From Trichoplax sp. H2 (taxonomy: Eukaryota), in the NCBI GenBank assembly GCA_003344405.1, contig NOWV01000176.1:1-64000 (forward strand): a DNA stretch of 64,000 nt, in the 5' to 3' direction. Every line of letters starts with the position of its first letter. The stretch's first letter is position 1. This document shows positions 713 through 45,735 of the stretch, in pieces. The notes beneath the pieces are model-generated. The model was given only the letters and a program-made list of their open reading frames with translations. It searched no databases and had not been told where the DNA came from. A program made the position numbers and the translations under genes.

Positions 713-1711
713 CTAGCGAATTGTGGACATTCGTGTCACGGTTTGGCTCTTTTTAGATTGGAATTTACCTCCAGAAAATGCATAGGCAATAGGATGCAAT
801 ACACTGCATGAATTAGCAAGACATACGACCCAAAACATTACCTCTTTTTCCTCCGTAGTAAATGTCTGTGGACGGGAATCAAAGACTATTTGCATAGTCC
901 ATAATGGCACCCAAAGTAGTAAAAATAAGATTGTCATAATTGTAATGGTGGTAATAGTTTTTTTCCTTGCATTATCGATTTTCGATGAACCCTGGCGTAC
1001 TTCATTGACCGGATATTTAATGGATTTCCATATGCGTAAAATAATTCTGCTGTAACAAAAAACTAATATAACCGATGGTACAACGCAAAGGATGAGATAG
1101 TTGAATATAATCATGAAAGTACGAAATTCTTCATTGCCATATTTACGTCGACAAAATTGGACATTAAAATTGTACAATTTAAATTCATCGCTTTGGATAA
1201 CGTATAAGTAGGGCGTCATGAGAGCTGCCGACAATATCCAAACGAATAATATTGTTTTTTTGGTCCTTGCTTTGGAGCTTTCAAACTGGAATGAACGACA
1301 AATCGCTCGATAACGATCAATTGCTAATGCAACCAAGGTGAAAGCTAATGCTGTCATGGCTGTGGTCCTTATATAATTGATTATTTTACATCCAGCTGCA
1401 CCAAAGACCCAAGCACCTCGTAAATAATCAGATAACAAATTAATTGGAACATACAGCGATGTAACAAGGAGATCAGCAAAAGCTAAAGCGGCAATGTAAT
1501 ATTCAGCAATTCCAATACGCTTACTCGATTGACGAAGCAAAACTCCAATCACCATAGCATTACCACCGAATGCACCAATAAAAATAATAAGACTAACGAT
1601 AGTTTTAGCTACCATTACATTAGCTGGTTTAACGAATATTTCTTCAAAGGTAAAATTTCTGGCCATTGGTATGGTGATATTTTGTAAAATGGGCGTTGGA
1701 GATGCCATCAT
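713..1711 (-). CDS. Intronless rhodopsin-family (class A) GPCR, peptide-receptor-like, 332 aa
   Basis: Seven hydrophobic segments. Motifs: GN in TM1, LAFADLL in TM2, W-V-F-G-x-x-x-C in ECL1, DRY in TM3, WVP in TM6, HPIAY (NPxxY variant) in TM7. N-terminal sequons NIT and NFT. Confidence 0.95.
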   Translation of the reverse strand: MMASPTPILQNITIPMARNFTFEEIFVKPANVMVAKTIVSLIIFIGAFGGNAMVIGVLLRQSSKRIGIAEYYIAALAFADLLVTSLYVPINLLSDYLRGAWVFGAAGCKIINYIRTTAMTALAFTLVALAIDRYRAICRSFQFESSKARTKKTILFVWILSAALMTPYLYVIQSDEFKLYNFNVQFCRRKYGNEEFRTFMIIFNYLILCVVPSVILVFCYSRIILRIWKSIKYPVNEVRQGSSKIDNARKKTITTITIMTILFLLLWVPLWTMQIVFDSRPQTFTTEEKEVMFWVVCLANSCSVLHPIAYAFSGGKFQSKKSQTVTRMSTIR

Positions 1712-4700
1712 ATACTGATTTACCTGCTATATACTTCCTTTTTTGCAGGAGGTAATTGAGGAATAATTCTATCAATGAGTAAGTAAATATTTTACGTTGA
1801 AAATGGTTGATTAATCAACAGTATTTTTGAACTATTTTGAACTATTCGCTTAATCTCTTGGATGAACTAGCCAAGGTGGATGAACTAGCCAAGGAAATGA
1901 TCAATATCGTGTCTTGTCTTCAATTTCTATCGAAAATAAATGAAATAGTATCCAAGGAAGTGATTTCTTTGATCAATAATTTGATTGACGTTGACTACAG
2001 TGTATAGTCTCGTTTACGATACGTCGATGTTAATGTTAGTAACTCTTCTTGTCCATATAGAAAGATTCTTTTTTCAATCGATACGTTCTCAAATTAATCG
2101 GCCACTCGTTAGAATATACAATTACTAGCACATTGTTAACATTCGTACGGTATAAAGGGCTGTCAAACTGATCAATTAAAGGTACGATGAGCAATGACGT
2201 GGAAAGCCAACTATAGATCGTTAATTGTTGACTAGACAACCTTGAAGAAAATGATAGGGTTAATTGGAATGCGCTGTTGATTCCAGCATAGGATCGAACT
2301 CAATCTAACTGGTAGAACAGCGTTGATAGTTGTCTGTAAGAAGGGAAATGGAGATAAAGATATTAATAAGCTACTACAATCCACAATTGAAGTAACAGAA
2401 TATGCCTATATAATGAAATATCCAAATCTAGTCTATTTACGCTAGAGTTAACGTGCACAATTCTAGTTCATCGTTTATGGGTTAATTTCAATCCGTGAAA
2501 AATGGATATCAACAATTTCTATGCATAATATACGTACAGTAGTCGTAGACTGTCTTTAATTCATAACAATGAAATCCATTCTAAAAGATAGAATAAACTA
2601 ACCAATAATAATCTGCTACCATAGCGATGTAAAAAGTTACAGGTTCTCTGCTGTTTTTTTCATATTTTTGATGGCATTTATTATTATCCCAGACAGAACT
2701 GATGTACGCCTTCTTCTTCGTCTTGTTTGTTCTACTACCAAACATAAGTCACAACGTGAGGTATTTTAATTATACCAAAGGGCTAACAATATTAAATTGT
2801 TAATGGATGGATATTATTGATCAACACTGTTGCATTAAAAAACAAGTGAATCAGCTGGGTAGTAAAATATTGAAAAGGTTGGAAGTAAGATTATTTATAG
2901 CCAGTGTTGTTGACCAATTTAGTCACGCTTTCAGCGTCATAAAAACTAGTCTATACTTTTATCATACATCAACCAATTGATCCAAAGCCTTCTCTTGACA
3001 ATTAAGTCAAAGCTGATCTTTGTAGGAGTCCAATTGTGTTGTGGTAACCGTATCATTTATTTATAACTACATTACAGCATCAATAAGATAGCTTAAATTG
3101 TTACCGACATAACTACTTCTATCCTACATAAACAATTAATCTCTATCCTAATTAATGACTTGGCTCAAGAACAATACATCAACTACTTTACAGAATGGCA
3201 AAATTAATTAATATACAGTATACTATTACGCTGTCTATTCCCTCTTGATGCAAGCAAATTTATCTTCTTCTCATACCTTCAATACGCAATCTCTTCAATG
3301 TAGACGTTATAGTCATTAAATACTAATTCATAAGTAAACACCTACCATCGCTACTGTATCCTATCGATCAATTACAGTCAACATAGACACAGATTCTATC
3401 AACGACGACAAAATTCCCTTTTTTTGTTATTGTAGCATACAATAAATTAACCTTTGATTAGTATTATGTAACATAAAAATGTTATTCATTTTCTCACGTG
3501 GGTTTATTTTCCACTTTACATTTAGTCTTGAAATTTTGGTGGATAAAAATCTAATTAACAACCCATTGTAGGTCGAGTAGGACGATTGCAAAATAGACTT
3601 CTTTATAGCGATGTTGGTCATCATCATTAATAATTAGTTCAGTTTGGATTAAAGCTAAATTGAACACTTTATAATACCCTTGTGTTGATAGTATTAACAA
3701 ATGAACTTCTAATGAATTGATATTGATAAAAAGTTTGAATGATACAAGTTTTCAAGTTGAATAATGTCTGATAAAGTGATGGTAAAGGTAACAGCAGTAC
3801 TGCTATTCGATTAAATTTCTATGTACTCGAATAGATATCACAACTATAAACATTAACCTTATTAAATTGATTATTCAATCAATTTATGAATTTCAAGAGC
3901 CAGTAGCGTAAGAAGTCCATGATGAGAAACGATTCATTACCCATCCTAAACAACATCGCTTTTAGTTACTTAAGTAAAGGTGTGCAGACGATCTTTTTTT
4001 TTAAAGCAACAACAATTCGAAAAGATAGATTATTATTCTGAGCAATAGGTAGACAGCCATTATATGGCATCTATTGATGTATTGAATATACGCATCGCTA
4101 TGAATAGTTGCGAATATTGTGATGAATATTGAAAAGAAAATCACGAGAATTGATGGAGTATAAAATGTGTTAATAAATACTATCGTTCTCTTCAACTTCA
4201 ATCGAATCGTTTATAATAATATTGACTTATATCAACATCTAATATAAAAGCTACTTCTAGCCTAAAGAATAATAGCAAAATATTTGAAAATGAACATAGG
4301 GTCAATCATAACTAAGTAAGAGTCGGATAATAAATAGGATCCAATTCTTTGTTATAACCTTTGAAATCAAAATTTCAAAGCCAATAATCAAATGATTGCT
4401 AAACAAACACTTACACAAGCGGAAGAGAGAAGACTTCTTCCTTTGGACATTCTTTAATCAATTTTCTAAGAAATACAGTTATTATTTAACGTGATTCATC
4501 GACTCTAATCTCGTCAATGAATATACCCAACTAAGTTTTATCACAAAATTGTTATTGCCGGGTAGTACACAGAAGGTAATCTCTGTCATTACTATATTCT
4601 TTTCTTAATGGTTATGCTAGAACATACTATTTATATTATAATATTAACCAGTTGAGCTAACATTATAGCAATGAAAGTGGAGTAAGGAAATAGTACTCAT

Positions 4701-12200: not shown

Positions 12201-14728
12201 ATGATGATTAACTAAGTCGATTCTATCATAATCTACAAATATTGCTTACGCGCACTTGATTTCTCACTCTCACTCTGACTTCAATTGATATTTCCGAATT
12301 CGATACGTATATACGAATGTACACATCCTTTGCTGATTCCTTCATGGTAAAAATATTACAAAATCACGTTTACTGATGTTAAATCGTTATATACTACTTT
12401 GAAATTTTATGTGCCATTCGATCTGCAATCAATTTCTAAGCATTTTAACACGTTGACTGTTTTTAAATAAAAATTATGAAGGTAAGCTCACAAATATTAT
12501 CAAAAGTATTGAATTCTAATTTTAAGGATGAGCGGATAATCATACCGGTCTGAAAGTTTTAATATTGTGAACACTTTAAAAATTTTGTTATAGGCTAAAA
12601 AGTTTAATGCCGTCATCTAAAATTTATAATTTTTTATCCTGAAATTTATTCTATTAAATATTCCCGGGCTCATTTTAAAAAATTTTCATTAAAGGGAGCC
12701 TACATACTGTTGGTAAAATAGTTGAGATAGAGCAAGCTCATATTTTGTTCATACGCGCCAACATTTCTCTATTATGATACTAGCTCATTTGTTCATGATA
12801 TGCATGCATCTCTTTTATCATTTTCTTCGGCCTACTTATTTCAATTAATCTACGTATTGATAATTGTGACAGAATACGAAGTTACATTTATTAAATGTAG
12901 ATGATATGATGGTGATATTTATTATAATGTACATAGATATTCTATTACATTACTCATCACATTGATATACCGCTTCCCTTTTACATATAATGCATATTAT
13001 TTTTTACGAATCATAGTTATGCCGATTTCTCAAAGTTAGCTTTGTTTCAGACTCTTTACAATCTTCCATTAACCGATTAATGCTTCTACACTAGACGGTG
13101 TCTATTCTTTTATAAGGCATTACCTTGGACCATTACACTACTTGTTCGTATAGTTCGAAATATAACAGACAATTTCGTAGATCTTTTAGCTTAGTTAAGC
13201 ATTTTAGTCTAGAAATAGATTAAATATAGCGTTAGCATTTATTGATATAGCGAGTGTGAATTAAGAATTTGATTAATATAGTCAATTTTTAGTCTATTAT
13301 TAAGGTGGAGACAAACATTTTTTTTATATAATCTATTGATATCAGACAATATTACAGAAACTGCTAATAGGATATAATATAATACTTACCTTGATATAGT
13401 ACGATCTCATTACTTCCATCATGAAAGTCTATGAACTAAGGCCTACAGGATACGTATATATTGAAACTGATATATTGCTAGATTGATATAGCAAAAGTAA
13501 AGTTGATTTCTTTAAAAGCTAGAAATTATTTTTAACAGCTTATTTATTGATACTATGTTTTGTACATATCATAAATCACGAAATTAAACCGACCGTTTTA
13601 ACAGGATTAATGTTATAATTATAAATGATTAACGTTGTTGGAGATGATATAGTTTGTTTTATATGTTATATAACTTTCTCTCGTATGACATCAATAATAT
13701 CTTCATAAATAATAATTGGTCCAGTCTTGGCTAATTGTATCATTGTAGGATATCATAAAATATACATTCAAATAGTCATTTCATTAATGGCATGTGCGTA
13801 TTTTACTTTACATGTAGAAATTAATAACCTTGATAAGTTGTATGATACAAAGCTGTAACTAAGCATGATCTTATTTTGACAGCAATCTGAATTAGCTATT
13901 ATTTGGGAAAAGTTTAAATTAATCTAAATGTCATATTCGACCCTTTACAAAAAGAGATTAGATGGAACGCATCCTTTAATACAATCCGTGAATATGTAAT
14001 AATTTCATCTATAAAAATTGCATATCTTGTTTTGGAGCTGACAGTTCATTAATAGTTAGCGATTAATTAAAGCATCCAACTGTATCTCTTTTAATTAATT
14101 GGGTAACAGTTTCATTTAGAATAAAAGTATAAGTAATTTCTGGCTCCAGTTCGAAGGGGATACGTACAAAAATTTATCGTTACTTTTACCCTATGACAGT
14201 TTCTGTAAGAAGATTGTCTGAAAAATAGTTTTCTTTGAACCTAAAGGATTTTTTTATACATTTTATTCATTATCATATTTATATTAATTTATATGATTTG
14301 AGAATTCTATTTCCATGATAATTATAATTGCACAGATAAAATAAGCTAAAAGAAGTAGGAAATTAACAATTTAAATTCTGATTAAATTTAAAAATCATAA
14401 CTTGAAATAGAAATTGAAAACAAACTATCAATGATTCAACTAGAATTGTTTTCAAAATTCTCGAAAAATTCGGGTATTGTTTCTTTTCGTTTAAATTCTA
14501 TACGAATCTCTTATTACGTATTGATGTATCTCAATGCTATTAAATTGATATATATAATTGCTAGTTTTTGTAATATATACGAGATTTATATTGTACATTA
14601 AAGAAATTTTTTGCTATTCATCTTTCTGAGGAAGACAAAATATTTCTTCTCTTGAATTATATTTAATCTCTCATTGATATTCTGTTTTTGATATACGTAT
14701 GTTGTAGGAAAATCCAATTCTGCTTAAT

Positions 14729-15940
14729 ATGACATTGAAAAATTCATCCTTTAGTATTCCCAATCAAACAAGATCATGTATCGATGACGGCAATTTTGAA
14801 TCTACGCAAGGTATCATCCTCATTGTTAAAATTGTGGCATTTATTACAATCTATACAGTCTCCACAGTTGGAAATCTTATTATTGCTTACGTTATTGTTC
14901 GTACTCATCGATTGTGGACTTTTACTAATATTATGATGCTAAATTACAGTATTGTAACGTTGCTATTCTTAGCGTCAGGATTATTACAATTTATAACCGA
15001 TATAATCTATCGTGAATCATGGCCCTTTGGAGAGTTCCTTTGCAAGATTACATATTCTTCATTTGTTGTAACTGTAGTTGTGTCTGCATTTTCCATAACC
15101 TTTATGTGCTATGCACGCTATCGGGTTATCTGTTTACCGCTTAATATCCAGCCAAATCGAAGACAAGCACTCTATAGTATAATATTTTCTTGGGTTGTAG
15201 CTATTGCTTGTATGATTCCCTATGCTATAGTTTTAAAGATTACCCGCTATGGTAAGAATGATTATTGTGTCATCGATAGCTCGTGGGGAAATGGAGGGCA
15301 TCGACCTGTTTACGATTTTAGCATTTTTGCTATTACCTATTTTATGCCTATGCTGGTAGCAACTTATTATAATATTCGAGTAATAAAGGGCTTGAAAATA
15401 GGTCGAAGTTATCGTTCCAAAAGTCATCATAAATTAAGTGGCAATAGCTATTACCAACCAGATGAAAGTATTGATCAAGTTAAAGAGAAATTACGCCAAA
15501 TGTCAGTATTTATATTTACAGCTTATTTAATAGCTTGGTTACCTTATTGGATTTATGTTCTGTTAATTAATACTAAAATCTTAAACGCCATCATACTACA
15601 GGTTAAAAAATTCGATTGTCATATCATATCAAAAGTACTAATAGTTCGCACCTTTACCAAGTACATTGCTTACTTTTATAGCACTTCTAACGTCTTTGTT
15701 TGCTACTATTACAATCCTCATTTTAATGCTGCCTTCAAGTCCATCTTTTGCTGTAAACGATGTACAAAGGGTTCTGATTGTTCATTCGATCAAGATCAGC
15801 GTTTTTGCTCTATCTATAAATGTAGTTATCGAAGTGATACACCAATATATTCTTCACGCGGTTGCAACGAAGATAGGTTGGTTCACTCACGTAAAAGTTC
15901 TTCTCATTCCAGTATCACGCAACAAATTACATCGGTATAA
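14729..15940 (+). CDS. Intronless divergent class A GPCR, 403 aa
   Basis: Seven TM segments, GN in TM1, WPFGEFLCK, ARY in place of DRY, YFMP in TM5, AWLPY in TM6, helix 8 FNAAFKSIFCC. A splice acceptor (ttgtag, ~14707) just upstream suggests a 5'UTR intron. Confidence 0.95.
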   Translation: MTLKNSSFSIPNQTRSCIDDGNFESTQGIILIVKIVAFITIYTVSTVGNLIIAYVIVRTHRLWTFTNIMMLNYSIVTLLFLASGLLQFITDIIYRESWPFGEFLCKITYSSFVVTVVVSAFSITFMCYARYRVICLPLNIQPNRRQALYSIIFSWVVAIACMIPYAIVLKITRYGKNDYCVIDSSWGNGGHRPVYDFSIFAITYFMPMLVATYYNIRVIKGLKIGRSYRSKSHHKLSGNSYYQPDESIDQVKEKLRQMSVFIFTAYLIAWLPYWIYVLLINTKILNAIILQVKKFDCHIISKVLIVRTFTKYIAYFYSTSNVFVCYYYNPHFNAAFKSIFCCKRCTKGSDCSFDQDQRFCSIYKCSYRSDTPIYSSRGCNEDRLVHSRKSSSHSSITQQITSV

Positions 15941-21030: not shown

Positions 21031-21828
21031 ACAGTCACTGGCTCACTGCGCCATCTTTCTCATCGCTAGTTGGGGTTGGCATGATTGACAACGTTGAAGG
21101 TGTCACAGGTGCGATCGATCGATCGCTGGATGCTACAGCTGCAGCCGGGATAGGACAATGGAGGAAAAGTAAACTCTGCTGAATGCGTTGTTGTAGTGTG
21201 CGCGTTCTACAAGCGATAGTCTCATGTTTGAAACATACAGTCTTGATATAGCCTAAAACAAGAGTTTTCCATGCCAGAATCAGTCCATTCTTGGCTATCC
21301 AGGGCAGTACAAAAGTTGGACATAAGCGTGTAGCACAGCCAGTCATTGGTCGTGGACAGAGGGACAGACAGACAAAGCCCACTGTCCAGACTGGACAGTG
21401 GGCAGGCGCATACTAATGACGAAACGATCCTTCCTTCCGTTTATTCCTCTTGTAATGGGACAAGAATGAAAGCAACCTTGACCAACTTGGCTCGTCTAGA
21501 AGTGGAGACATAGAATAAGAGATTATTAAGCTATAGAGTGGCTATTAGAATTACGAAAGGAAAGCCTTATTAATCATCCAATTGACGAAGCAATTACATC
21601 CTTGCTACCAAGGGGAAAATCACTGGATCCTACGCGTACTTGGACTGGCGTTGAGAGTCGCTATTTTGCCCTTGACTACAAATTGTAAACTGGCTGCAAC
21701 ATCGTTCAATAGTTTACCCTACTTTCTTCTTAGCCTATTGGCACACACAATCGATACGATTAGCAAAGTTTTCTATTACGCCTCTACAGCAATCTTACGC
21801 TAGTTTCAACCTATCGAATAGGATTATA

Positions 21829-24800
21829 ATGAAAGAAAATAAAAATAGCGATGGTAGAAGTAATAGCAATACGGATCCGACGATACGAATCGGTACCATC
21901 AATGTTTCGCTAAAATATATTAGTTTATTTACTTTAACGCTTCAAACAACCGCTTTGGTCTTGATCATGCGATATTCTAGAACTATACCTAGCAAGACGA
22001 TGTATCTGGTCACTACTGCAGTGGTTATTGCTGAAGCGATGAAAGTCATTACTTGCTTGTTCATCATCTTTCGACAAGTCGGCTTCAATTTTCATAAGTT
22101 TACTGCAGTCGTTCGCGATGAATGTATTGGACAATTCTCTGAGACGATTAAATTGGCTATTCCAGCTGGGCTTTATACGGTGCAAAATAATTTACTCTAC
22201 ATTGCTTTATCCAACCTGGACGCAGCTACATATCAAGTCACCTATCAGTTAAAAATTTTAACTACTGCTGTTTTCTCCGTCACCATGTTGAGTAGGAGAC
22301 TCAGCTCGACTAAGTGGATTGCATTAGTCTTACTCATGGCTGGTGTCTCATTGGTTCAGGTGAGTGTAGACAGTGCTCTACTTGTAAGAAAGTTGCCGTA
22401 AGCACACTTTCAACGCGTCCAGTGCTTGCAACATTATCAGCCATCGTAGCTGATTTACCAGTACAACTTACATGGTAACAAGTGGACTGCATTCAAGCAG
22501 CTACCTCATTGAAATTGGATAGATTTCATGTTATCCTCCAATAACGACCATTTCGTGCATGCTTAAAAGTAGCGTAAATGTTATAGAGAGTTATAAAGAT
22601 GTACAGGCAGTCCTCCAATTGGACAGTTTATCTACTGCAGTACTATGGATACAATCAAATATGACTTTGGATTTCTTGAGTACTCTTACAATAGTCGTAG
22701 ACTGCGGAGGTGATACATACAGTAGACGAATTTGTGCATCATTTATAGGTATAGACAACCACAACCTACCAATCGATGGATATGGACATCACTTCTGATT
22801 GACCTAATGTATTATTATCGATTTATATATTATTAGCATCATCAAATTACTAACTCACTTTCGAAATATTTAGATGCCAACGAAGGGGCCACATAGTTCC
22901 AAAGATTTATCTAAATCGAAGCAATTCTTGGGATTAGTTGCTGTCCTTACTGCTTGTTTATCAAGCGGATTTTCCGGAGTTTATTTTGAAAAAATTTTGA
23001 AAGGTAGGCTACAGTGTTCTAGAACGCGTATAATACTCTCAGCATTCTTTACGCTTCTGTTCCCTCCATAATGCGATATTATTGACACTAACGTTAATGT
23101 TTAGTACATCAGTCTATAATTAATTCTTATCCATTAATCAACCATCCCATTCATTCGCCATTCAGTGATTATTGCACTTTACTAGAGTTATATACTAATA
23201 TCAACAACAATTATTCATATCTGTAATGCATCGTACAGTACTGTGCATTCTGGCAAATAAGACTATAAGAACAATATGTATATAATATTCAAATTGCAAT
23301 AAAATACTTGCAGACTGTGTACGCTTAGACAATATCCAGGCTTATTAATGACATAATTAACAGGCAAGCTAGTTGAAAAAATGTGTCGTTATGGATAGTC
23401 TAGTTACTGTATTTTGTAAATTGTAAGAAAGTCAACGTTATATGACATCTCCATGAATAGATTGATGACATATAGTAGTAATATTAACTAATAATTTACT
23501 ATTTCGTGCATTACAAGTATTTTGGTACTAAAGAAATCAACTAGGTATGCTATACATTTTCATTATTCATTATGCGGATCTATGCAGTTGTACTTACTTT
23601 ACTGTACACTTTTCACGACCTCACTGGATTACATTATATAGTACAGTATGTCCCCATAGATAGTATCTACAAATATTATTTAGAAAGCATTAAATATAGA
23701 ATATTTCACAACTTGTGATGATACCGGTAATCAAATACCATACTCGGCCCATGTTGAAGATTTTTACTTGTACTTACTTACATACGATCAATATGGAGAC
23801 ACTCTTTCGCTTAGAGGTACCGATAATTCATTACTAATAAATGAAAAATTATAGCAATGATGTTACTCCTTGATATTTTTGACCTAATACTCTCCTATAG
23901 CAGACCTTACACATCATAACATTGTGTTATAGTGACCACGTAGTACAGTAGTATCTTGAAGGTATCACGATATTGCTTGAAAATTCAACGAAAGATGAGC
24001 CTTATTTATCTGTCAAAGTTAAGGTGTTTACTTAAAGGCAGATAGATATACTTTAATACTCTGATTGTTACTTTATCACCTACAAGAGACTGATCCCTAC
24101 TGTACATGCAACGGCATTGGCTTCTATTAAATCATTTGATTTCTCTGCTAACTCTATGGTTATCATCTATATTGCAGTTGCAGTTGTAATGGTGCCAAAC
24201 AGCTACCTTCTTGTCATAACGCCTATGCAGTACTGTAGGTTGCTAATTCTATTCAGACTCAACGAAACTGACTAAGGAGTTTATTACAACTGAAATTGCC
24301 CATTCGCCCTATGTTTTATAGTAATCTTCGATCACGAAAGTAGTAGTTTACACTTTGGTAGGGCTAGTATCATACTGTATTACTAAAGTAAGCCTGACTT
24401 TATCATTTACCAATATGTGTTGTCCATGACAATCTCCATAAATATTTTATTACCACTGACTTTTAGATCTCCAATCTGTGTAACCTGTTCATTTATACTG
24501 TAGGTACAAAGTCTTCCATTTGGGTTCGTAACGTACAGCTTGGTACATTTGGATTTATTTTCGGTTTAATGGGAATGTTGTACAAAGATTACGATGCACT
24601 TGTTAAAGATGGTTTTTTCCAAGGCTATAATAACATTACGTGGATCGTCGTAAGTTTACAGGTAATGCTACACTGCTTTAGTATGTTTTAAACGCAGGTT
24701 TAGATTATTCTTGCGCTCGATAGCAAGGCTGTACCGAATGTTGGGAATAGGATTATCATCAACTATGTATGCTGTCGTAATCATAACACAAATTTTTTTT

Positions 24801-34900: not shown

Positions 34901-37900
34901 TTAATTTTAAAAGAAATGATGCTTAGAGGATATACACCTGGTTACTAGCATCATTAAAAAAATAAATTTAATTTAATAACAGTAATACTAGTATGAAAAA
35001 TCATGCTACGATTTTACTTCAGTATTATATTATTGTAAATGTCAATTGAATATGCAATCCATCGTATTTTAAAGTTACCAAATCGTAAAGACTTATTAAA
35101 TCTGCCTTTATTTAAATTTTTTTCTTTGATTATTTGAATACCAATTTTAATTTTAATTGAATAACTGCTTCGCACAGAGGTGTAAATCCACCCCTAACCT
35201 TCAATTTTCGAATAAATTATTAAACTATGAAACTTCCTATAAATTTTTTGTCACTCCTGTGTTAATACTGTTTATGATTGATTCCATTTTTACTATATCT
35301 AATTCTAAGACCGATACAATGCTAGTTAGAATTACCGGCAGATGTAACAGTCAGGATAATCATAACATAGAAATTATTTACTAGTAATTTTAAATATTCA
35401 AATAATATTAACGAATTATTCACATGGTTCGATTTAACGTCAATAAATACGTGCTGCATTTTTAAGTAAATTGCCACCAAGACAGTCTAAAACACTTGAA
35501 CACGTATCAAGCGGAAAAGACCACGTGCAAGCTAATTGATGGCAGCAAAATGATTATTCTAGGTTGATTACTAAAATTACAATGCCATATTTTGCCGTAA
35601 GTTAAAATCGCATGCTACTAAACTACGAAACTAATTCGTACATTATAATATGTGTACATCATTTATTATCGATTGTTTTATTGGTTATAGTAAATTTAAA
35701 ATGAAATGCAACATTTTTTTCATTTTTCGATTGATTCTTTCTAGTGCACTTGAGTAACTACAGCATAAATATTATTATGATAATTTGCCAACGTCATGCA
35801 AGGAAGTAATTATTGTTATTATTAAATTATTGTGGTTATTTTACTTAGCATCTTCACTACCTGATGGTAGAAATAGATGGTCAACTGTTACCTGACGTCG
35901 GAAGTTGATTACTAATAGACTGAATAGACAGTTGGCAATCATTAACTCAGTTCAGATCTCGAATTAATGACTAATATTTCGAATAATAACAATTACTGAA
36001 ACAACGACGGTAGTTATAACAACGCTATGAATGCAAACATAACATTAACTCATTGATTCTAATGATCAGGAAATAGTTAATGAATCTGTCAGTAATCGCT
36101 TATAATTTAAAGCAATCAAATTTAATGAAATGACAAGAATAAGAAGCAGGAAGTAGAGAAAGACTTAATTTACTTCATACTTAACTAGCGATTTACTACG
36201 TAGATTTTCCCAATCGATGCAATAAACGACCCAAATATGATTGCGTACATTTCGGGGTCAATTTTAGTTGTAGAGATTACTGTATATAAAATAAAGAGCA
36301 AAAAATTTGAAAATATACATAGGACTATTTTAATGATTTCTACAAAAAAAATTAATCCCTGCTGCATGTAGTACTATATAGCTTGACAGTACTGAAATAA
36401 TTATTAAATAATAACTTCCCTTTTTCTATTTTTATATACGGTGCAATTATAATCCCGACACACACTTACTACTTCCATAACTGCTGCTCTTTATTTTTAC
36501 ATGTCAATAAATACCGATATTGAGAGATATCGGTGGGGTCACATTTTTTAATTTTAGTGCATAAACTAATGAAAGAACTATAGTTCAGAGAAAAGTAATC
36601 ATTTCCTGCTATTTTTAACCTCTATTAAATTTTGGTTTATACGCTTTGAATATCGTAATGGCTTGTAGAGTATCATTAAAATAGAAAGCATTGATCATCA
36701 TCTGATAGAAAATTTCCATGATGATAACGCTAATTCAACTATCATGCTTAGGATTTTATATTTCATTCCATTTCAGTAATTAGAAATTGTTATTTGCAAA
36801 AACAAGTTACGATAATTGATTAACCTGCTTTGTTGATACAGAGAGCTAAGGTACTTCGTTATGATTTAGGACAATAGCAATTTTAATTTTTAATCTCTTT
36901 ACTAGTTGTTATATTTGCGGATATAATCATTAACAATACCAAAATTATTTTTATATATAGCCATTAACGGGATTAAAGGCATAATAGGTAGAATAAAGTA
37001 GTGAACCTTGAAGGTTATTTCCCCATAACCTTAACGATACGCTCGGAAATATGTGCAATATTACTTTTAAATTTACATTATGCTAATTATTTTGCATTTC
37101 ATATCAATTATAATTAATTAAGTTCAATTATAATCCAATTACCTATGTCATGAAAAGAACTTCACTATGGTGATAATCCAAGAAATAACATTAAACTACG
37201 CGTACAAGTAAAAGCATTAATTAGAGTTTATTATTCTTTTATTGGTTTAGACGGCTTTATTTCTATATTTATTGTGCTTAACCGATATTATTATTATTCA
37301 CTACTTCATTTCTATAATAGTGTTAACGTAAGAAAAAAAAGAAAGAAATTATTCTCTACGTAGTCATTGTATTTAAACTATATTAACAGTTGATTTATTC
37401 AAAAATTTCATTGAACTATTTTAAAGGATGGATTAAATTATTTGTCCAAGATATTGTACTATAAATTAATTACGTTTTCGAAAGTGCAAAACAATAGTTG
37501 CAAAAAGGTATAAGTACAGGTGCATCCTAGCACTGAGTAATTATCAACACAACTTCTTGATCGCTTGACAACTTTGAACTACTTCGCTATCAATATTCTT
37601 ACAAGGTTAGGAAAAAAATTGATTGTTATATATAGGCTTCGAATGCGTAGTATCTATTATTGTTGCTTTCCAGTAAAATTGTAGAAAAGAAAGTTAAATT
37701 ATCTTCCAAAAAATACCTACATTGAAGAGAAAATGAGCATGATTTTATGACTTAATATTGATAATTTTTTTTAACTTATTTAACAATTTAGACTAATTTT
37801 GCTGGTTTTAATTTTTCAATTGAACAGTAACAATTCAAATTTATGTTGACATATCCACTTATTTAATAAGAAATTTTAAACTGTACACATTGCTATTGTT

Positions 37901-37914
37901 TTTAATTAGGCAAC

Positions 37915-39076
37915 ATGCATATGCTTCACAAAATTGCCCTTCTCGCTCTCATTTGCTCTATTATGGTCTTACAAGCACATTCTTCGTCCATGTATTACGT
38001 GATGGTATGTCAATATTTAACTTTTTTAGATAGGACGGGTTCAATATCTTGCATTTGTATTTACAACGTGATTAGAAGGAGATGCTGTTTTTTTGATCAT
38101 TTATATTGTTAATTGGCTTCAATTTCCTCTGCAGAGAATCTGTTATTGGTAGTTACTATTTGATATACGAGAGTAGCAATGGTATAAATTCCTGTAAATT
38201 AGAATGATCATTGTATAGGTGCTAATAAATTAATAGGTGAACCTTCAATTCTAGCTAGGATTAGAAAAGTGGTCATAGTATTCCTGTTTTATATTGTTTA
38301 TTGGCTTTAGTTTCCTATACAAGAGCATCTATTGCTGATAGTTGCTATCAATGATATTCGGCAGCAGTAATGGTACAAATCCCCGTAAATTAGAATTACT
38401 ATTGTATAGGCATGTTGAATGAATAGTTTACCTACATTTTAGCTAAGATTGGACGAGTGGCCATAGTAATCCTATCTTATATTGTTCATTGATTTTATTT
38501 TCCTATAGAAGAGCATCTATTAGTAGTAGTTGCTATCAATACTATTCGACAGTTGTAATAGTACAAATCCATGTAAATTAGAATCATTATACTATAGGGC
38601 AACTTAAATTAATAGTTTCAATTCTAACTAGGATTGGATAAGTGGACATAGTACTGAACTCCTATTCAATGTTGTTCATCGACTACGTTTTACTTAACAA
38701 GAATATCAATTACTATTGATATTCTACAGTAATAATGCTTCAAATCCTTGCCAATAAGAATCATCATTGCTTAGTTTAATTAAATTCAGTAGTTTAAATT
38801 CGAATTAGGATTGGATAAGTGGCTATAGCTCTCCTATTTTTTATTTATTGATTATTGATTATTTCATTTTCGATCACGTTTGGCTACTATGTCATTTATT
38901 AAAGTCTGTAATACTCAAATCAATAATTTTAAAACGTCATTATTATTATATTATTCTAGAGGAGGGATAATTGCGCTATTGTCGGTGGACTTAATTGCAA
39001 AGATGATGTTGATTGCCAATTACAATGTGGGTTATCCTTCTGTGACGTTGATCGATGTAGCAATCCACCACTTTAA
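37915..39076 (+). CDS. Small secreted cysteine-rich peptide precursor (68 aa; 6-Cys mature peptide)
   Basis: Exon 37915-38004 encodes MHMLHKIALLALICSIMVLQAHSSSMYYVM and is followed by the donor gtatgt. Exon 38960-39076, after ttctag, encodes RRDNCAIVGGLNCKDDVDCQLQCGLSFCDVDRCSNPPL*. Both are phase 0. A probable 5'UTR exon ends ~37605, with an acceptor at ~37909. Confidence 0.8.
38020..38860. repeat. Intronic diverged tandem array, ~4.5 x ~185 bp
   Basis: Anchor gtaaattagaat at 38194, 38385, 38573 (variant ~38750). Anchor gatt(a/g)ga..agtgg..atag at ~38258, 38447, 38631, 38808. Confidence 0.85.
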
Positions 39077-39749
39077 GGCTGTATACATATCCATGCTGTC
39101 GGTTATTCTATGGTCTCTCTCCCGTGCGCAAGTCATCATTAATATTCTACTTTACTAAATTCAAGCTTGTACACTAAATGCGATTTGACATTGAAAGTTT
39201 GGATGGTTATGTAGAGACGATAGAATAATTGTAATGTGTACATGACTAGCGCTGTCTTATTCTTACATAGTTCAATATGATACTGTAGTATCTAACTTTC
39301 AATCTTCTCTAACAGTAAAAGGAAGAAAACACAATGCCATTTGAAAGTAATGATAAATCCGATAATTATGTTACTAAATTTAAACGAATAGTAAAAGTTA
39401 TTCACCTAGAATAGAAATAGCACAACTTTATTCCGATAGCTCTTGTCACGTACACGTATAATTGATTAAGCAGTCAATTAGAGGCGAAACAACAATAAAA
39501 TTATGTGAAATATTTTTCACTGTTACATTAATTCTATACGATTCTGGCATAGTCCATATTTTCTCTATTGATATGCGTATCCGTATACAAGTGGAACAAG
39601 AATGAAGCGTTAGCAATGGATTATTTCCCTATCATTCGCGTTGTGCAAGGCATTTTTACCATGTAGTAGCATCTCAATTATGCATGCAACAATCGCATCG
39701 TAAGATGTGATTAAAATCCTGATCTTTCCGCGTACTATTCAAAATCCGG

Positions 39750-39819
39750 ATCAACATCAATATCCGACTTCCCTACATTACATGTGTGAAATATAGGGGA
39801 GTCGCATATTGATGTAGAT
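39750..39819. other. 70-nt imperfect inverted repeat (hairpin)
   Basis: atcaacatcaatatccgacttccctacattaca-tgtg-tgaaatataggggagtcgcatattgatgtagat: 33-position stem with 4 symmetric mismatches and 1 G-U pair. Confidence 0.85.
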
Positions 39820-40966
39820 TTAAAAATCCAATTCAGATTTACAAAAGATTTGTCACTAAAGTTCGGTATCGCGAAATGGATTTAGAAATGCAAATTCTCC
39901 AATTTTGATACCAGCAGGCAGTATCGACACTTTGTACTTCCACTTACTATAATAGAATCAGAGTTATGCACTATGGTGGCTGATCTCAGCCCAACTGTAT
40001 GATACTGGTGATCAATCTGATCACACATGCTTACCAAAAATAAAAATAAATACAGTAAATTAATTCACACCAGCAGTGAAGATATTACTTGTACTGCAAT
40101 ATAGAAAGAAGAAGATTTGACGAGTATGTGGTATATATTCACTAGATGAACGTCCTGTCTCTTTGCTGACAGAGGTATCCTAGTTCATAGTGGGCTAAAT
40201 AATGCAAAATTACAGTACCACGCATGTTTTGAATGTCATGATTATAATAATAATAATGGTAAATCCTGGACTACTAATATATAATTAATTCAATAATAAA
40301 AGACATTCTGCAAAATTACCAAATTGACTTAGTATCGATCTTGAGTGTCGATTTTTTGGAATCATTTCTACTCATTTAAAAACATTGATGACGTTCTAGA
40401 ACTGCTTTTCAAGCAGAACTGAGTATAATTATGGACTTCTAGATAGCTAGAGAATATATTACTGTCACAAACTTATGTTGCGAACTACTACACTAAACTA
40501 ATAGATTACTTATGCCTTGCTCCACTACACCTGGAGATCTACTGTATGGTAGTTCTTTACTACTTTCGGTCACACAGGGAAAAGACTATTCTAAAAGATT
40601 AGTATAGTTTTTATTAGTAGAGTAGCCGAGTACCTTCTCGTACACGATCTAATAAGGAACTCTGGAACTGAGCATTCGCTCGTCCTTTTATACCATTCCA
40701 CTAAATTTATGGTATCGCCATTATTAAATCTACTGTATATAGGCTCTACTAATTAATTGCAAATACAATTATGCATTTTTGTCGTCTAGCAATCTAGACA
40801 TTAATATTCTTAATTTCAATTACGCTTACCAATATGATCCATTAGCTAAATACTGACAAAATCTATTTAATTAGCAAGTACGGTGCTTTGCTCCGTAGCA
40901 ATTACATTTAATTTAGCAAAATAAGTGAATAAGAGAACCGGCCATCCGCTTCAAGACCTATTCTGG

Positions 40967-41923: not shown

Positions 41924-44900
41924 ATGGCGTCGAGGTTGTTGAGTAGAATATCGCGAAGCAGTCAATCGTTAAGCTTTAGAAGACAAACACCAGTTGTATC
42001 TGCTTTTAGGTAAGTTAATAGAGCGTTGAAAACAAGTGACTTAACAGTGTATTAGGTTGTACACGGTAGAATGCAAGTATGAAGCGGCTTGTAGTGCTAT
42101 ACCGTATTGGCAAGTTACAGAAAACGTGAATTAAGCGATCCATGTTTGTCTTGTCAAGGTGTGGACGACTTAGTTCCAATCCATCTTGACTAAATCGCCC
42201 TATCATGCTATCTTATACTCATGACGATATCAATTAAACATCAACGATGATCTGATAATGCTACTAGATTGTGTTGATCATGCGATCGAAGCCGTATTAT
42301 TCATACGAGTAGATCAACTTTTCAACTCTATCCGGTAATATGGACGATGTTTGTTGGCTGGGTGGAGTACAGTCGAGATCGTTTTTGACTAGTCTATCGA
42401 TCCAACTTTGCTCTTTCACTTCATCAAAGTTCTTTAAACTGATTGATGTACTGTAGTGGTTCAAGCTGCCTTTTACATACAAGTGATGGTCAAAGATAAG
42501 CAGTCTTGAGTAACTTGTTGTAATAAGAGTTAGCTTATGATTGTAGTATTTCCAAAGTTTTTCGACTTTTTTTTCTTGCAGTACCATGGGCCTTCCCCAT
42601 GACATGAACAATGTTGCCTACAGTAGTGTGTTAATCACTTTGTATCAATATTAATCATACTACGTCTATAAATGAATTCCAGATACAATAGCGATTCAAT
42701 CAAGGAAAGCAAGCAATCACTGAAACCTAAGCCCTGGGAACCTCAGGGTGTTCAGCAACCACTTTCTGACTTACAAATGAGAGTCTTGCCGGGATATCTC
42801 AACGATGATGCAGGAAATGTTTTATATCCGAACGAAATAAGCGAAATATGGGATAAGGATGGAGTTTGTACGTCATTTTCCAAGTATCATGAACCAATCT
42901 TTGTCATTAATATATATATGGTGTATTAGCAACATCTTTTGGCATGATGTTATTCTAATAACCTTCAATAAACTAAATTTATATTTTAAGAGAAAACATC
43001 TCTACGTACACCTTTCGGATGACTAACGCAATGACCGTGTTCTATATATTGTATCTCATCGAATTATTTCATGTTATAGTATTTACGCCGGACCAAGACA
43101 TCGGTAGCTATACGGTCAATTTCGGCCCACAACATCCAGCTGCTCACGGCGTATTACGTCTTGTCATGGAATTAAACGGAGAGGTATGTTTGGAATAGGT
43201 TCTCTGATTCATGATTCGGTAACGTTAACAACATAGATTGTATATCTCCTTCTGTAATATTTTTCATCAAAGTTGATTTATATGCGGGTTTAATCAAATG
43301 TCTAACTTTCTATATTATCTATCCATATTGATAGACTGTAAAACGTTGCGATCCACATATTGGTTTGTTACATCGTGGAACAGAGAAATTATGCGAATAC
43401 AAAACATACCTTCAGGTAATGTACAGTAGCTGTAGCATAATATCTACTTGTATATTAGACTATTCCTAGTCCGATATGATAAGAGGCCGCTTTATTGCTA
43501 AATACAATCTAGTAATAAAATAACAACATAGTCGGCTACATGTGCAACATAATATTACCAGTCTGTCCTGTATTCATACCTTAATAGAGTATGGTACAGT
43601 TTGATAATAACTTGACTGCTGATACAGATTAAAACATTTGACATATTGAAATAATTAACTACAGAGTATTCCGTAGACTTGAAAACAAAGCTAATCTTTC
43701 ACTGGACTTTTACTAGGCTTTACCTTATTTTGATCGTTTGGACTATGTATCCATGATGTGTAATGAACAATGCTACTCCTTAGCCGTAGAGAAGTTACTA
43801 AATATTCAAATTCCAGAAAGAGCAAAGTTTATTAGAGGTACTAGAAATTTGTGAAATAGCGATATCTAAATTTCTCTCAGCCAGCAATAAAATATTAATT
43901 AATTCAATTTTTGCAGTCTTATTTGCCGAAATTAGTCGACTATTAAATCACATTATGGCTGTTACCACTCATGCGTTGGATGTTGGTGCTATGACGCCTT
44001 TCTTCTGGATGTTTGAAGAGCGTGAAAAGGTAAATTTGAACATAACAACTACTGGCAGATTTATAGCTTAAGGTTAAAGCATGGCTGCACTTGAATAATA
44101 CCACATGCCTTATAATGTCACTTCAGATGATGGAATTCTATGAGCGCGTCTCTGGAGCTAGATTGCACGCTGCTTATGTAAGACCTGGTGGAGTTGCACA
44201 GGTAGTTAAACTAGAACTAGAATTATAGTGTACAGTTGCTAATTCCGTTGAGAAAAACTTAACTTAAGTAACAACGGAATGTACAAACCGTCCTCTTCCA
44301 TTGTGTCGTTGTTTAGGACTTACCGTTAGGGCTGATGGATGACATTTATAGTTTCTGTAAGAATTTTTCGCAACGAATTGATGAATTGGAAGAGGTAACA
44401 TACAGTATTTGGAATAATTGATTGAAATCACATCTGCCTTCTCTCAGCTGGAATTATCTTGTATTGCTTTATTTTGGGCATAGATGTTAACAAACAATCG
44501 CATCTGGAGGGATAGAACCGTCGATATTGGGATAGTCACAGCTCAAGAGGCTCTTGATAATAGTTTCAGGTGACTGTTTAGTGACTTTTGCACCGATCAA
44601 TTTTAAAGTTGATAATAGTTCCTTTATACCTGATAGCGAGGGTTTAAGAAATTTAATAAAAATGTTGTTGCGCAAATTTTATATGATATTCCTTCACCAA
44701 ATTATCAGCGGTGTTATGCTACGAGGTTCTGGAATTAAATGGGATCTTCGAAAGGTGCAGCCATACGATGCTTACGATAAAGTTGAATTCGATATTCCAA
44801 TCGGTACTAATGGCGATTGCTATGATAGGTAAAACGATTAACTGGAACAGTGTATTAAGAATTGGCCGATTATTTTATCTCGTTCTCCTAATTTGCTTTG

Positions 44901-45735
44901 CATAAATCTCTACACTTCACAGATACTTATGTAGAGTGGAGGAAATGAGACAGAGCTTACGTATTATTATGCAGGTATATTTTGTTTGTCATGATAACTG
45001 CTATGATTGTAGTGGAAGACTATTTTTGTTCGCTTCGATTATTTTACTTACACTATAAATTCGCTATTATTAGTGTTTGAACCAAATGCCTGAAGGAGAA
45101 GTTAGAGTAGATGACGCTAAAATATCACCTCCACGACGAGCAGAAATGAAGGTCAGCTATGGATCGATAAATGCTTGTTTTGGTATTCTTGGATATTATG
45201 ATAGAAACTAAATTTCTTCATATTTTTATCGTATAGGATTCAATGGAATCTCTGATCCATCACTTTAAACTATTTACTGAGGGTTACAATGTTCCACCTG
45301 GGGCCACATACACTGCGACAGAATCACCAAAAGGTGAACTTGCCGTGTACGTTGTATCAGATGGAAGTAGTAAACCGTACCGCGTGCGCATCAGAGCCCC
45401 TGGATTTGCTCACTTGGTCAGTTTCAAAATCGTTATGTTAATTGTTTTTAATTTAATGTTATTCAGACGACAACTTAAACTAACTCTTAATCGTTAATAG
45501 GCTGCAGTTGACAAAGTCGCCAGAAATCATTTCTTAGCCGATGTCGTAGCTATCCTTGGTAATTATTATGTTTATTTCAATATACTTTTCTACTAGATAA
45601 TTGACATAATATACGCAGAATAACATTACTCATTGATATAGTTAAAAGTGGCTGATAAACCTGCTCATTGGCTTTCACTTTGATTATTATTAAATAGGTA
45701 CTATGGATGTTGTATTTGGAGAAGTTGATCGCTAA
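41924..45735 (+). CDS. NDUFS2: NADH:ubiquinone oxidoreductase 49-kDa subunit, 15 exons
   Basis: Approximate exons 41924-42009, 42683-42867, 43080-43183, 43335-43415, 43717-43837, 43917-44028, 44127-44201, 44317-44394, 44484-44569, 44709-44828, 44923-44974, 45074-45151, 45237-45416, 45501-45558, 45699-45735. Motifs [67 protein letters not shown]-rich mitochondrial presequence. Confidence 0.97.

What the first reader, a model, noticed from the sequence alone, without database searches (positions are those of the whole stretch)
37915..39076. Hidden two-exon secreted 6-cysteine peptide with toxin/defensin-like precursor architecture
Seen: splicing 37915-38004 to 38960-39076 gives a signal peptide, a short pro-piece, a dibasic RR site, then DNCAIVGGLNCKDDVDCQLQCGLSFCDVDRCSNPPL, with spacing C-x7-C-x5-C-x3-C-x4-C-x4-C. 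The ORF track misses the second exon because it reports another frame. Known: signal/pro/mature organisation split by an intron, and the C-x5-C-x3-C core, are typical of CS-alpha-beta defensins and scorpion short toxins. This peptide differs in being acidic and lacking the terminal CxC. Inference: an undescribed disulfide-rich peptide (feeding toxin, antimicrobial, protease inhibitor or signalling ligand).
Basis: partly seen in the sequence, partly recalled or inferred. Interest (0 to 1): 0.85.

Follow-up and report, generated by a model that had tools for sequence, protein, structure and literature searches.

The report
Unannotated secreted six-cysteine Trichoplax peptide gene

Summary
37915-38004 and 38960-39076 translate as described. 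The GT..AG joint 38004/38960 is present in RNA-type contigs of 3 of 3 such runs laid, from three studies. It is absent from the one DNA-like run. The gene has three exons, not two: a non-coding exon (about 37543-37605) is spliced to 37910. The 68-codon frame starts at the first ATG of the 688-nt mRNA and is its longest ORF. The window is Trichoplax adhaerens.

No relative was found: Pfam, PDB sequences and phmmer against 1.84 billion representatives gave only one spurious repeat hit. The precursor itself is not in that collection, so it appears unannotated.

Two low-confidence AlphaFold models (pLDDT 67-68) give a helix over CxxxC followed by a beta-hairpin. Weak structural matches lean towards knottins (EETI-II Z 3.0) over scorpion CS-alpha-beta toxins (Z 2.5). 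The defining CxC of CS-alpha-beta peptides is absent.

Best reading: a lineage-restricted prepropeptide giving a 36-residue peptide (pI about 4) with three disulfides, which acts outside the cell on a protein target. Function, cell type and conservation across placozoans are untested. Interest is moderate.

The parts
37509..37514 (+). TATA-like box (TATAAG), 29-34 bases upstream of the 5'-most base covered by an RNA contig (37543)
   Evidence: Motif scan; contig start table 8 (X6 record 7). That it acts as a promoter element is inferred.
37543..37605 (+). Exon 1, non-coding 5' UTR. The 5' end is approximate: X6 contig starts at 37543, X7 contig at 37569 next to adapter sequence.
   Evidence: tables 5, 7 and 8. 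No ATG in this exon: the first ATG of the mRNA is the CDS start.
37606..37909 (+). Intron 1, 304 bases, GT..AG
   Evidence: table 5 (X7 joint 37603/37908, cut +2); splice-site context. X6 uses an upstream duplicated acceptor in an 18-base insertion allele (tables 4, 5, 5c).
37910..38004 (+). Exon 2: 5 bases of UTR plus codons 1-30 (37915-38004). These encode the signal-like segment MHMLHKIALLALICSIMVLQAHS and the short pro-piece SSMYYVM.
   Evidence: Nine-residue Kyte-Doolittle mean reaches 2.9 over residues 7-19. The signal cleavage near AHS|SS is inferred from the -3/-1 rule; no SignalP was available.
38005..38959 (+). Intron 2, 955 bases, phase 0, GTATGT...TCTAG. It contains a 188-base tandem repeat x3 at 38101-38653.
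   Evidence: Joint in X6, X7 and X8 (table 5); repeat.
38960..39076 (+). Coding part of exon 3: RR dibasic site, then the 36-residue 6-Cys peptide DNC...NPPL, then TAA stop.
   Evidence: Mature peptide: 3831 Da reduced, pI 4.05, charge -4.3.
39077..39489 (+). 3' UTR up to the last base covered by RNA contigs (X8 ends at 39483, X6 at 39489)
   Evidence: table 8
39494..39499 (+). AATAAA, the likely poly(A) signal, just beyond the contig ends
   Evidence: Its use is inferred.

Best explanation
A genuine, lineage-restricted three-exon gene of Trichoplax adhaerens encodes a 68-residue prepropeptide.

Shown: the transcript, both splice joints, and the reading frame.

Inferred:
- The hydrophobic N-terminus directs the protein into the ER and is removed near AHS|SS.
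- A proprotein convertase cuts after the RR that opens the last exon.
- This releases a 36-residue acidic peptide (pI about 4) whose six cysteines form three disulfides.
- The fold is a compact helix plus beta-hairpin mini-protein, closer to a knottin than to a CS-alpha-beta peptide.
- It is secreted and acts outside the cell by binding a protein target (receptor, channel or protease), most likely as a diffusible regulatory or defensive ligand, and not by disrupting membranes.
For: - Translation and splice signals.
- The 38004/38960 joint is in contigs of 3 of 3 RNA-type runs laid (three studies) and absent from the DNA-like run. Exon word depths are 47-958 against 2.5-9 over intron pieces.
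- The ORF begins at the first ATG of the 688-nt mRNA and is its longest ORF.
- Hydrophobic core at residues 7-19. The RR lies exactly at the exon 3 start, and the Cys count is even.
- Only 6 of 1415 stop-free segments in the window are this Cys-rich.
- Two independent AlphaFold runs give the same topology: a helix over DVDCQLQC, then a hairpin.
- Structural matches: EETI-II Z 3.0, rmsd 2.4, 30 residues aligned, 30% identity. Six of nine matches are knottin-type.
- The same gene layout (non-coding first exon; signal and pro region; last exon starting at the dibasic site and carrying the Cys-rich part) is described for mussel MgCRP-I peptides (PMC4558851, passages).
- 0 of 207 CDS positions vary among the four runs, against 35 of 2794 non-coding positions (table 3).
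Against: - No homologue or paralogue was found, so cysteine conservation is untested.
- The variant contrast (0/207 against 35/2794) has P about 0.07 and is not significant.
- The models are low-confidence (pLDDT 67-68; the other models in each run score 45-66). All structural Z scores are 3.0 or lower, and the tool notes that such scores are common for unrelated chains.
- There is no peptide-level evidence. A 17-residue string of the peptide is absent from the five supplement files of the placozoan peptidomics paper. That table lists 6-18-residue fragments, so this is inconclusive.
- Neither SignalP nor ProP could be run.
- Contig depth cannot rank expression.
- The function is pure inference from charge and size.
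Confidence: 0.6

Rival explanations
1. It is a CS-alpha-beta type peptide (defensin or scorpion short-toxin-like) that blocks an ion channel or kills microbes.
For: Both models place CxxxC on a helix followed by a two-stranded sheet. Scorpion K+ channel toxins are among the weak matches: discrepin, BeKm-1 and others at Foldseek E 1-8; BmP07 at Z 2.3 and 2.5; ToPI1 at Z 2.2.
Against: The defining C-x-C partner of the CxxxC is absent; the sequence has C-x4-C. Net charge is -4.3 and pI 4.05, unlike the basic channel blockers and defensins (their basic character is recalled). Only 2 of 9 matches at Z of 2 or more are CS-alpha-beta, against 6 knottin-type. No Pfam defensin or toxin family appears at E up to 10.
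Confidence: 0.12
2. It is a knottin-type protease inhibitor that regulates the enzymes Trichoplax releases for external digestion.
For: The best structural matches are the squash trypsin inhibitor EETI-II (Z 3.0, 30% identity over 30 residues) and the MCoTI-derived elastase inhibitor MCoHNE-I (Z 2.3). A plant carboxypeptidase inhibitor also appears (Z 2.1). Ventral cells of Trichoplax express trypsin, chymotrypsin and other secreted enzymes (PMC12013895, passages).
Against: Z values are at noise level for this tool. The loop lengths 7-5-3-4-4 differ from the squash pattern 6-5-3-1-5 (recalled). The first loop (AIVGGLN) has no basic P1 residue. No Pfam Squash match at E up to 10.
Confidence: 0.12
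3. The transcript is real, but the small ORF is a young orphan that makes no stable or functional peptide, so the RNA is effectively non-coding.
For: No relative among 1.84 billion representative proteins apart from one spurious hit. No paralogue in the 64-kb window. No significant constraint shown (P about 0.07).
Against: A chance ORF is unlikely to combine all of these: the first ATG, a signal-like hydrophobic core, a dibasic site placed exactly at an exon boundary, and six evenly spread cysteines. Only 6 of 1415 segments are this Cys-rich. Word depth of the spliced contigs is high relative to the intron pieces.
Confidence: 0.1

Closest known systems
Knottins / inhibitor cystine knot mini-proteins (e.g. 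squash trypsin inhibitor EETI-II, PDB 1w7z)
   Same: About 30-36 residues, six Cys, and a C-terminal beta-hairpin carrying the last two Cys. Best structural match to the model: Z 3.0, rmsd 2.4, 30 aligned, 30% identity. There is an acidic C-K-x-D-x-D-C stretch like that of EETI-II (recalled).
   Different: No sequence or profile match. Loop lengths fit no named knottin family. The knotted I-IV/II-V/III-VI connectivity is not shown. The model is low-confidence.
CS-alpha-beta peptides (invertebrate defensins, scorpion short K+ channel toxins, e.g. BmP07, PDB 1pvz)
   Same: Signal/pro/mature precursor. CxxxC on a predicted helix followed by a beta-hairpin. Weak structural matches at Z 2.3-2.5.
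   Different: It lacks the CxC that bridges to the helix. It is acidic, not basic. No profile match.
Mussel MgCRP-I cysteine-rich peptides (PMC4558851, passages read)
   Same: Taxon-restricted secreted 6-Cys peptides. Non-coding first exon, signal peptide, short pro-region ending in KR/RR. The last exon carries the dibasic site, the whole Cys-rich part and the 3' UTR.
   Different: The MgCRP-I array is C-C-CC-C-C; here no two Cys are adjacent. MgCRP-I genes have four exons and form a large family; here there are three exons and no paralogue was seen. There is no sequence similarity, so this is an analogy and not kinship.
Known placozoan secreted peptides (SIFGamide, FFNPamide, PWN, ELPE, insulin-like peptides; arminin-like putative AMPs; cysteine-rich repeats of the PLys lysozyme)
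   Same: Same organism group; secretory precursors with signal peptide and proteolytic maturation (passages).
   Different: Those regulatory peptides are short, linear and often amidated or repeated. The arminin-like AMPs are 150-250 aa with basic C-termini. The PLys repeat reads C-x6-C-x5-C-x9-C-x8-CC (sequence seen). None has this framework.

Membership tests
CS-alpha-beta defensins / scorpion short toxins | CxxxC motif on an alpha-helix | tested here: met
   The sequence has C-QLQ-C. Both models put a helix over DVDCQLQC (pLDDT about 75 there).
CS-alpha-beta defensins / scorpion short toxins | CxC in the last strand, bridged to the CxxxC | tested here: not met
   The last two Cys are spaced C-x4-C (CDVDRC). 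There is no CxC anywhere in the peptide.
CS-alpha-beta defensins / scorpion short toxins | Profile or structural match to family members | tested here: inconclusive
   No Pfam family at E up to 10. PDB sequence search gave 0 hits at E up to 10. Structural Z 2.3-2.5 to BmP07 and 2.2 to ToPI1.
Knottin / inhibitor cystine knot | Six Cys with inter-Cys loops within knottin ranges | tested here: met
   Spacing 7-5-3-4-4 falls in the broad ranges I recall for knottins. This test is permissive.
Knottin / inhibitor cystine knot | Knotted disulfide connectivity I-IV, II-V, III-VI | not testable with these tools
   Model coordinates are not returned. Disulfide mapping or NMR is needed.
Knottin / inhibitor cystine knot | Structural or profile similarity to solved knottins | tested here: inconclusive
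   EETI-II Z 2.2 and 3.0, MCoHNE-I 2.3, conotoxin GXIA 2.2, Lycium carboxypeptidase inhibitor 2.1, theraphotoxin 2.1, tomato peptide 2.0. All are far below the Z of 8 that the tool calls meaningful. No Pfam hit.
Calcium-binding EGF (the only phmmer hit, P0004) | EGF Cys framework with CxC; all six Cys aligned | tested here: not met
   BLASTP aligns only 3 of the 6 Cys, across a boundary between an InlB-type repeat and an EGF_CA domain. The E of 4.5e-7 comes from 20 near-identical repeats.
Dickkopf_N / DUF7107 / EB small Cys modules | Profile match to PF04706, PF23416 or PF01683 | tested here: inconclusive
   The language-model neighbours score only 0.78-0.84, a level the tool says a third of shuffled proteins reach. 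Pfam lists none of these at E up to 10. Dkk4 N-terminal region is Foldseek rank 8, E 5.9.
Amidated or repeated neuropeptide precursors of placozoans | Multiple peptide copies, and/or a C-terminal Gly for amidation next to basic sites | tested here: not met
   Single copy. The C-terminus is ...SNPPL-stop with no Gly. Only the signal peptide and one RR site are shared.
Mussel MgCRP-I | C(X3-6)C(X1-7)CC(X3-4)C(X3-5)C array | tested here: not met
   No adjacent CC. The consensus is taken from PMC4558851.

The most novel reading that the evidence does not exclude
Placozoans make a disulfide-knotted, acidic secreted mini-protein of a fold family of their own. It has been missed by genome annotation, and therefore probably by analyses that depend on gene models. 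It serves either as a stable water-borne effector in external feeding or defence (acting on prey or predator channels or proteases), or as a long-lived diffusible signal coordinating behaviour in an animal without neurons. Apart from the insulin-like peptides, that would be the first structured, cystine-stabilised regulatory or toxin-like peptide found in this phylum.
Probability: 0.2. Interest if true: 0.7.

Novelty: new variant of a known kind. Interest (0 to 1): 0.4.

Why it matters
Trichoplax coordinates feeding and movement with secreted peptides and has no neurons. It lyses and digests prey outside its body with factors that are only partly known. A spliced transcript for a secreted three-disulfide peptide that is missing from the public protein sets suggests the placozoan secretome is still incomplete. 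Work that relies on gene models, such as single-cell atlases or database-driven peptidomics, may have missed it. The peptide is small enough to synthesise and test directly. Orphan cysteine-rich secreted peptides are, however, common in animals, and nothing here shows what this one does.

Tried and rejected
- Whole genome: none is held, so paralogues elsewhere in the genome and orthologues in other placozoans could not be sought.
- phmmer against 1.84 billion representatives: one hit, P0004, rejected as spurious.
- Pfam at E up to 10: only PIP49_C at E 0.33, which is noise.
- PDB sequence search: 0 hits at E up to 10.
- Foldseek against PDB: 0 matches at E of 0.001 or lower, 14 at E up to 10.
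- ESM Atlas: best scores 0.84 and 0.82, to Myxococcota Cys-rich clusters; a lead only.
- tblastn and Cys-pattern scan of the window: no second copy.
- Degenerate Cys-core pattern over the metagenome contigs: one locus, L001. It is a very Cys-rich repeat protein (CCKDGCDCCGGCEDGTC...) in a bacterial-looking contig, a chance match.
- Earlier notes of this scan: nothing on this locus or on similar sequence.
- Literature: a 17-residue string of the peptide occurs in no paper text, nor in the 5 supplement files of PMC10580291. Two of those files were cut when stored, and the peptide table lists short fragments. Word searches and passages read describe no such peptide.
- PLys cysteine-rich repeats were considered and rejected on Cys spacing.
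- Parts of the laid stretch without RNA-contig cover, and contig depths, were not used to rank expression.
- The 3' end could not be fixed: contigs stop at 39483/39489, just before the AATAAA at 39494.

Full report
**What is in the sequence**

The window is AT-rich (GC 0.28-0.43). It carries intronless rhodopsin-type GPCR genes. One of them, 713-1726 on the minus strand, is 100% identical to 'uncharacterized protein TRIADDRAFT_18468 [Trichoplax adhaerens]'. The window is therefore from the placozoan T. adhaerens; two earlier notes of this scan on other pieces of the genome say the same.

At the reported place, 37915-38004 translates to MHMLHKIALLALICSIMVLQAHSSSMYYVM and is followed by GTATGT. 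After an AG at 38958-38959, 38960-39076 translates to RRDNCAIVGGLNCKDDVDCQLQCGLSFCDVDRCSNPPL and a stop. The intron is phase 0, 955 bases long, and holds a 188-base tandem repeat in three copies (38101-38653) that occurs nowhere else in the window.

**Is it a real gene?**

A search of public sequencing runs listed 22 runs. Twenty hold part of the stretch and three are on record as RNA. I laid 4 of the 22: X6 (RNA on record), X7 and X8 (RNA by guess), and X1.

- X1 behaves like DNA. Its contigs cover all 30 bins at even depth, introns included, and it has no joint.
- X6, X7 and X8 come from three different studies. Each has a contig that joins 38004 to 38960 (955 bases skipped, GT..AG), with 30, 96 and 85 letters on the shorter side.
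- These three runs have no cover over 37101-37504 or 39525-40000. Over intron pieces they have only thin cover (word depth 2.5-9), against 47-958 over the exons.

It is covered from 37543 in X6 and from 37569 in X7, ends at 37605, and is spliced to 37910 (304 bases skipped, GT..AG). The gene therefore has three exons.

In X6 the joint lands 13 bases earlier, with four extra letters. This fits the 18-base insertion behind 37896 seen in X1, which duplicates the acceptor and the first bases of exon 2. That allele lengthens the 5' UTR by 18 bases and leaves the reading frame untouched.

A TATAAG lies at 37509-37514, about 30 bases upstream of the 5'-most covered base. An AATAAA lies at 39494, just past the last covered bases 39483/39489.

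In the 688-base spliced mRNA, the 68-codon frame starts at the first ATG and is the longest ORF.

**More than chance?**

Only 6 of 1415 stop-free six-frame segments of at least 25 residues in the window reach six Cys within 40 residues. Two of these are in a GPCR gene, and one is the read-through of exon 2 into the intron.

Among the four laid runs, 35 variable sites fall in the 2794 non-coding positions of the stretch and none in the 207 coding positions (table 3). That is the expected direction for constraint. With about 2.6 sites expected, P is about 0.07, so it is not significant. Coverage of the introns comes mostly from X1.

**The product**

- The nine-residue hydropathy mean peaks at 2.9 over residues 7-19, after a short segment that includes Lys. 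This is the shape of a signal peptide.
- By the -3/-1 rule, cleavage after AHS is the most likely. This is my inference, since no SignalP was available.
- That leaves the pro-piece SSMYYVM, followed by RR, which is encoded by the first two codons of the last exon.
- Cutting there gives a 36-residue peptide of 3831 Da (reduced), pI 4.05, charge -4.3, with six acidic and two basic residues.
- There is no C-terminal Gly for amidation and no N-glycosylation sequon.

The layout is a non-coding first exon, then signal and pro region, then a last exon that begins at the dibasic site and carries the whole Cys-rich part and the 3' UTR. This is what is described for the mussel MgCRP-I peptides (PMC4558851, passages), whose cysteine array (C-C-CC-C-C) is nevertheless different.

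**Relatives**

None were found.

- Pfam gives nothing at E of 0.01 or lower, and only a noise hit (PIP49_C, E 0.33) at E up to 10.
- The PDB sequence search gives 0 hits at E up to 10.
- phmmer against 1.84 billion representative proteins gives one hit, P0004: a 4275-residue protein of calcium-binding EGF and InlB-type repeats. BLASTP shows the same 31-residue match repeated some 20 times. It aligns only three of the six cysteines and spans a domain boundary, so I reject it.
- The same search did not return the precursor itself. That collection does hold the annotated T. adhaerens GPCR from this window, so the peptide gene appears to be absent from the public protein sets.
- There is no second copy in the window.
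- The language-model atlas offers only weak neighbours: 0.78-0.84, Myxococcota clusters with Dickkopf_N/DUF7107/EB modules. The tool says a third of shuffled proteins reach that level.
- A degenerate pattern of the Cys core found one metagenome locus, an unrelated very Cys-rich repeat protein.

**Fold**

No alignment could be built, so both AlphaFold runs were single-sequence. The 38-residue form gave pLDDT 66.9 (other models 46-52). The 36-residue form gave 67.8 (others 45-66). Both show the same elements: a helix over DVDCQLQC and a hairpin carrying the last two Cys.

Foldseek against the PDB found nothing at E of 0.001 or lower. The 14 rows at E 1-8 are scorpion toxins, designed cystine-dense peptides, plant defensins, the Dkk4 N-terminal region and an EETI-II variant.

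For the second model it gave nine:

| Chain | Z |
|---|---|
| EETI-II | 3.0 |
| BmP07 | 2.5 |
| MCoHNE-I | 2.3 |
| conotoxin GXIA | 2.2 |
| ToPI1 | 2.2 |
| Lycium carboxypeptidase inhibitor | 2.1 |
| a theraphotoxin | 2.1 |
| a cystine-dense peptide | 2.1 |
| a tomato peptide | 2.0 |

By their titles and my recall, six of the nine are knottins and two are scorpion CS-alpha-beta peptides. All these scores are in the range the tool calls uninformative. The fold is therefore a lean towards knottin-like and not a result.

The CS-alpha-beta reading fails one defining feature that the sequence itself decides: there is no CxC.

**Literature**

The peptide string occurs in no paper text.

Word searches led to the following, of which I read passages only:
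- the placozoan secretory-cell paper PMC12013895;
- the Cnidaria/Placozoa peptide review PMC9545775;
- the preprint 10.1101/360925;
- the cell-atlas and peptidomics paper PMC10580291;
- the innate-immunity survey PMC6321704;
- the lysozyme paper PMC12855814 (passages; section 18).

They describe linear, often amidated peptides, insulin-like peptides, arminin-like putative AMPs of 150-250 residues, and a lysozyme pro-domain made of C-x6-C-x5-C-x9-C-x8-CC repeats. None has this framework.

The supplement files of PMC10580291 do not contain the 17-residue string. Two of the five files were cut when stored, and the peptide table lists 6-18-residue fragments. A shorter fragment of this peptide could therefore be there unseen.

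**How it most likely works**

Shown: transcription, splicing and the frame.

Inferred: ER entry, signal cleavage, convertase cleavage at RR, oxidative folding to three disulfides, and secretion.

The strong negative charge argues against the membrane-disrupting mode of cationic antimicrobial peptides, and against the basic pore-plugging surface of scorpion K+ channel toxins (both recalled). A rigid acidic mini-protein is better suited to binding a protein target. I therefore favour a diffusible ligand or inhibitor. The specific roles remain open: a behavioural or regulatory signal, a regulator of the secreted digestive proteases, or an anti-predator or anti-prey factor.

**Verdict**

The peptide is a new, apparently lineage-restricted variant of a very common kind of molecule, the small secreted disulfide-rich peptide. 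It is worth a bench follow-up by placozoan biologists, but without data on function, cell type or conservation its interest is moderate.

Noticed in passing
window 38101-38653: A 188-base tandem repeat in three copies (about 76% identity between copies) fills most of intron 2. blastn finds it nowhere else in the 64-kb window.
   Followed up: partly
window 37896-37914: An 18-base insertion allele (seen in X1, and implied by the X6 RNA contig) duplicates the intron-1 acceptor and the first bases of exon 2. In X6 the upstream copy is used as acceptor, which lengthens the 5' UTR by 18 bases without touching the CDS (tables 4, 5, 5c).
   Followed up: partly
window 713-1726 (-) and 14708-15940 (+): Two intronless rhodopsin-family GPCR ORFs (7tm_1, E 5.5e-46 and 1.2e-30). 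The first is 100% identical to TRIADDRAFT_18468.
   Followed up: partly
window 21676-22401 (+): An exon-sized ORF of a nucleotide-sugar transporter (Nuc_sug_transp, E 2.1e-58).
   Followed up: no
window 43802-45497 (+): Three ORF pieces match the complex I 49-kDa subunit (NDUFS2-type; Complex1_49kDa, E down to 9e-25). This is the next recognisable gene downstream. No Pfam-recognisable ORF lies between about 32 kb and 43 kb apart from the peptide gene.
   Followed up: no
L001 189-785 (-): A metagenome contig encodes a 198-residue protein with a signal-like start and tandem, extremely Cys-rich repeats (CCKDGCDCCGGCEDGTC...). It was hit by chance with the Cys-core pattern.
   Followed up: no
window 37061-37082: A 2987-base contig of run X7 (depth 33.6) touches only these 22 bases and then runs on unlike the window (tables 7, 8). 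It may be an exon end of a neighbouring transcript or a short repeat.
   Followed up: no
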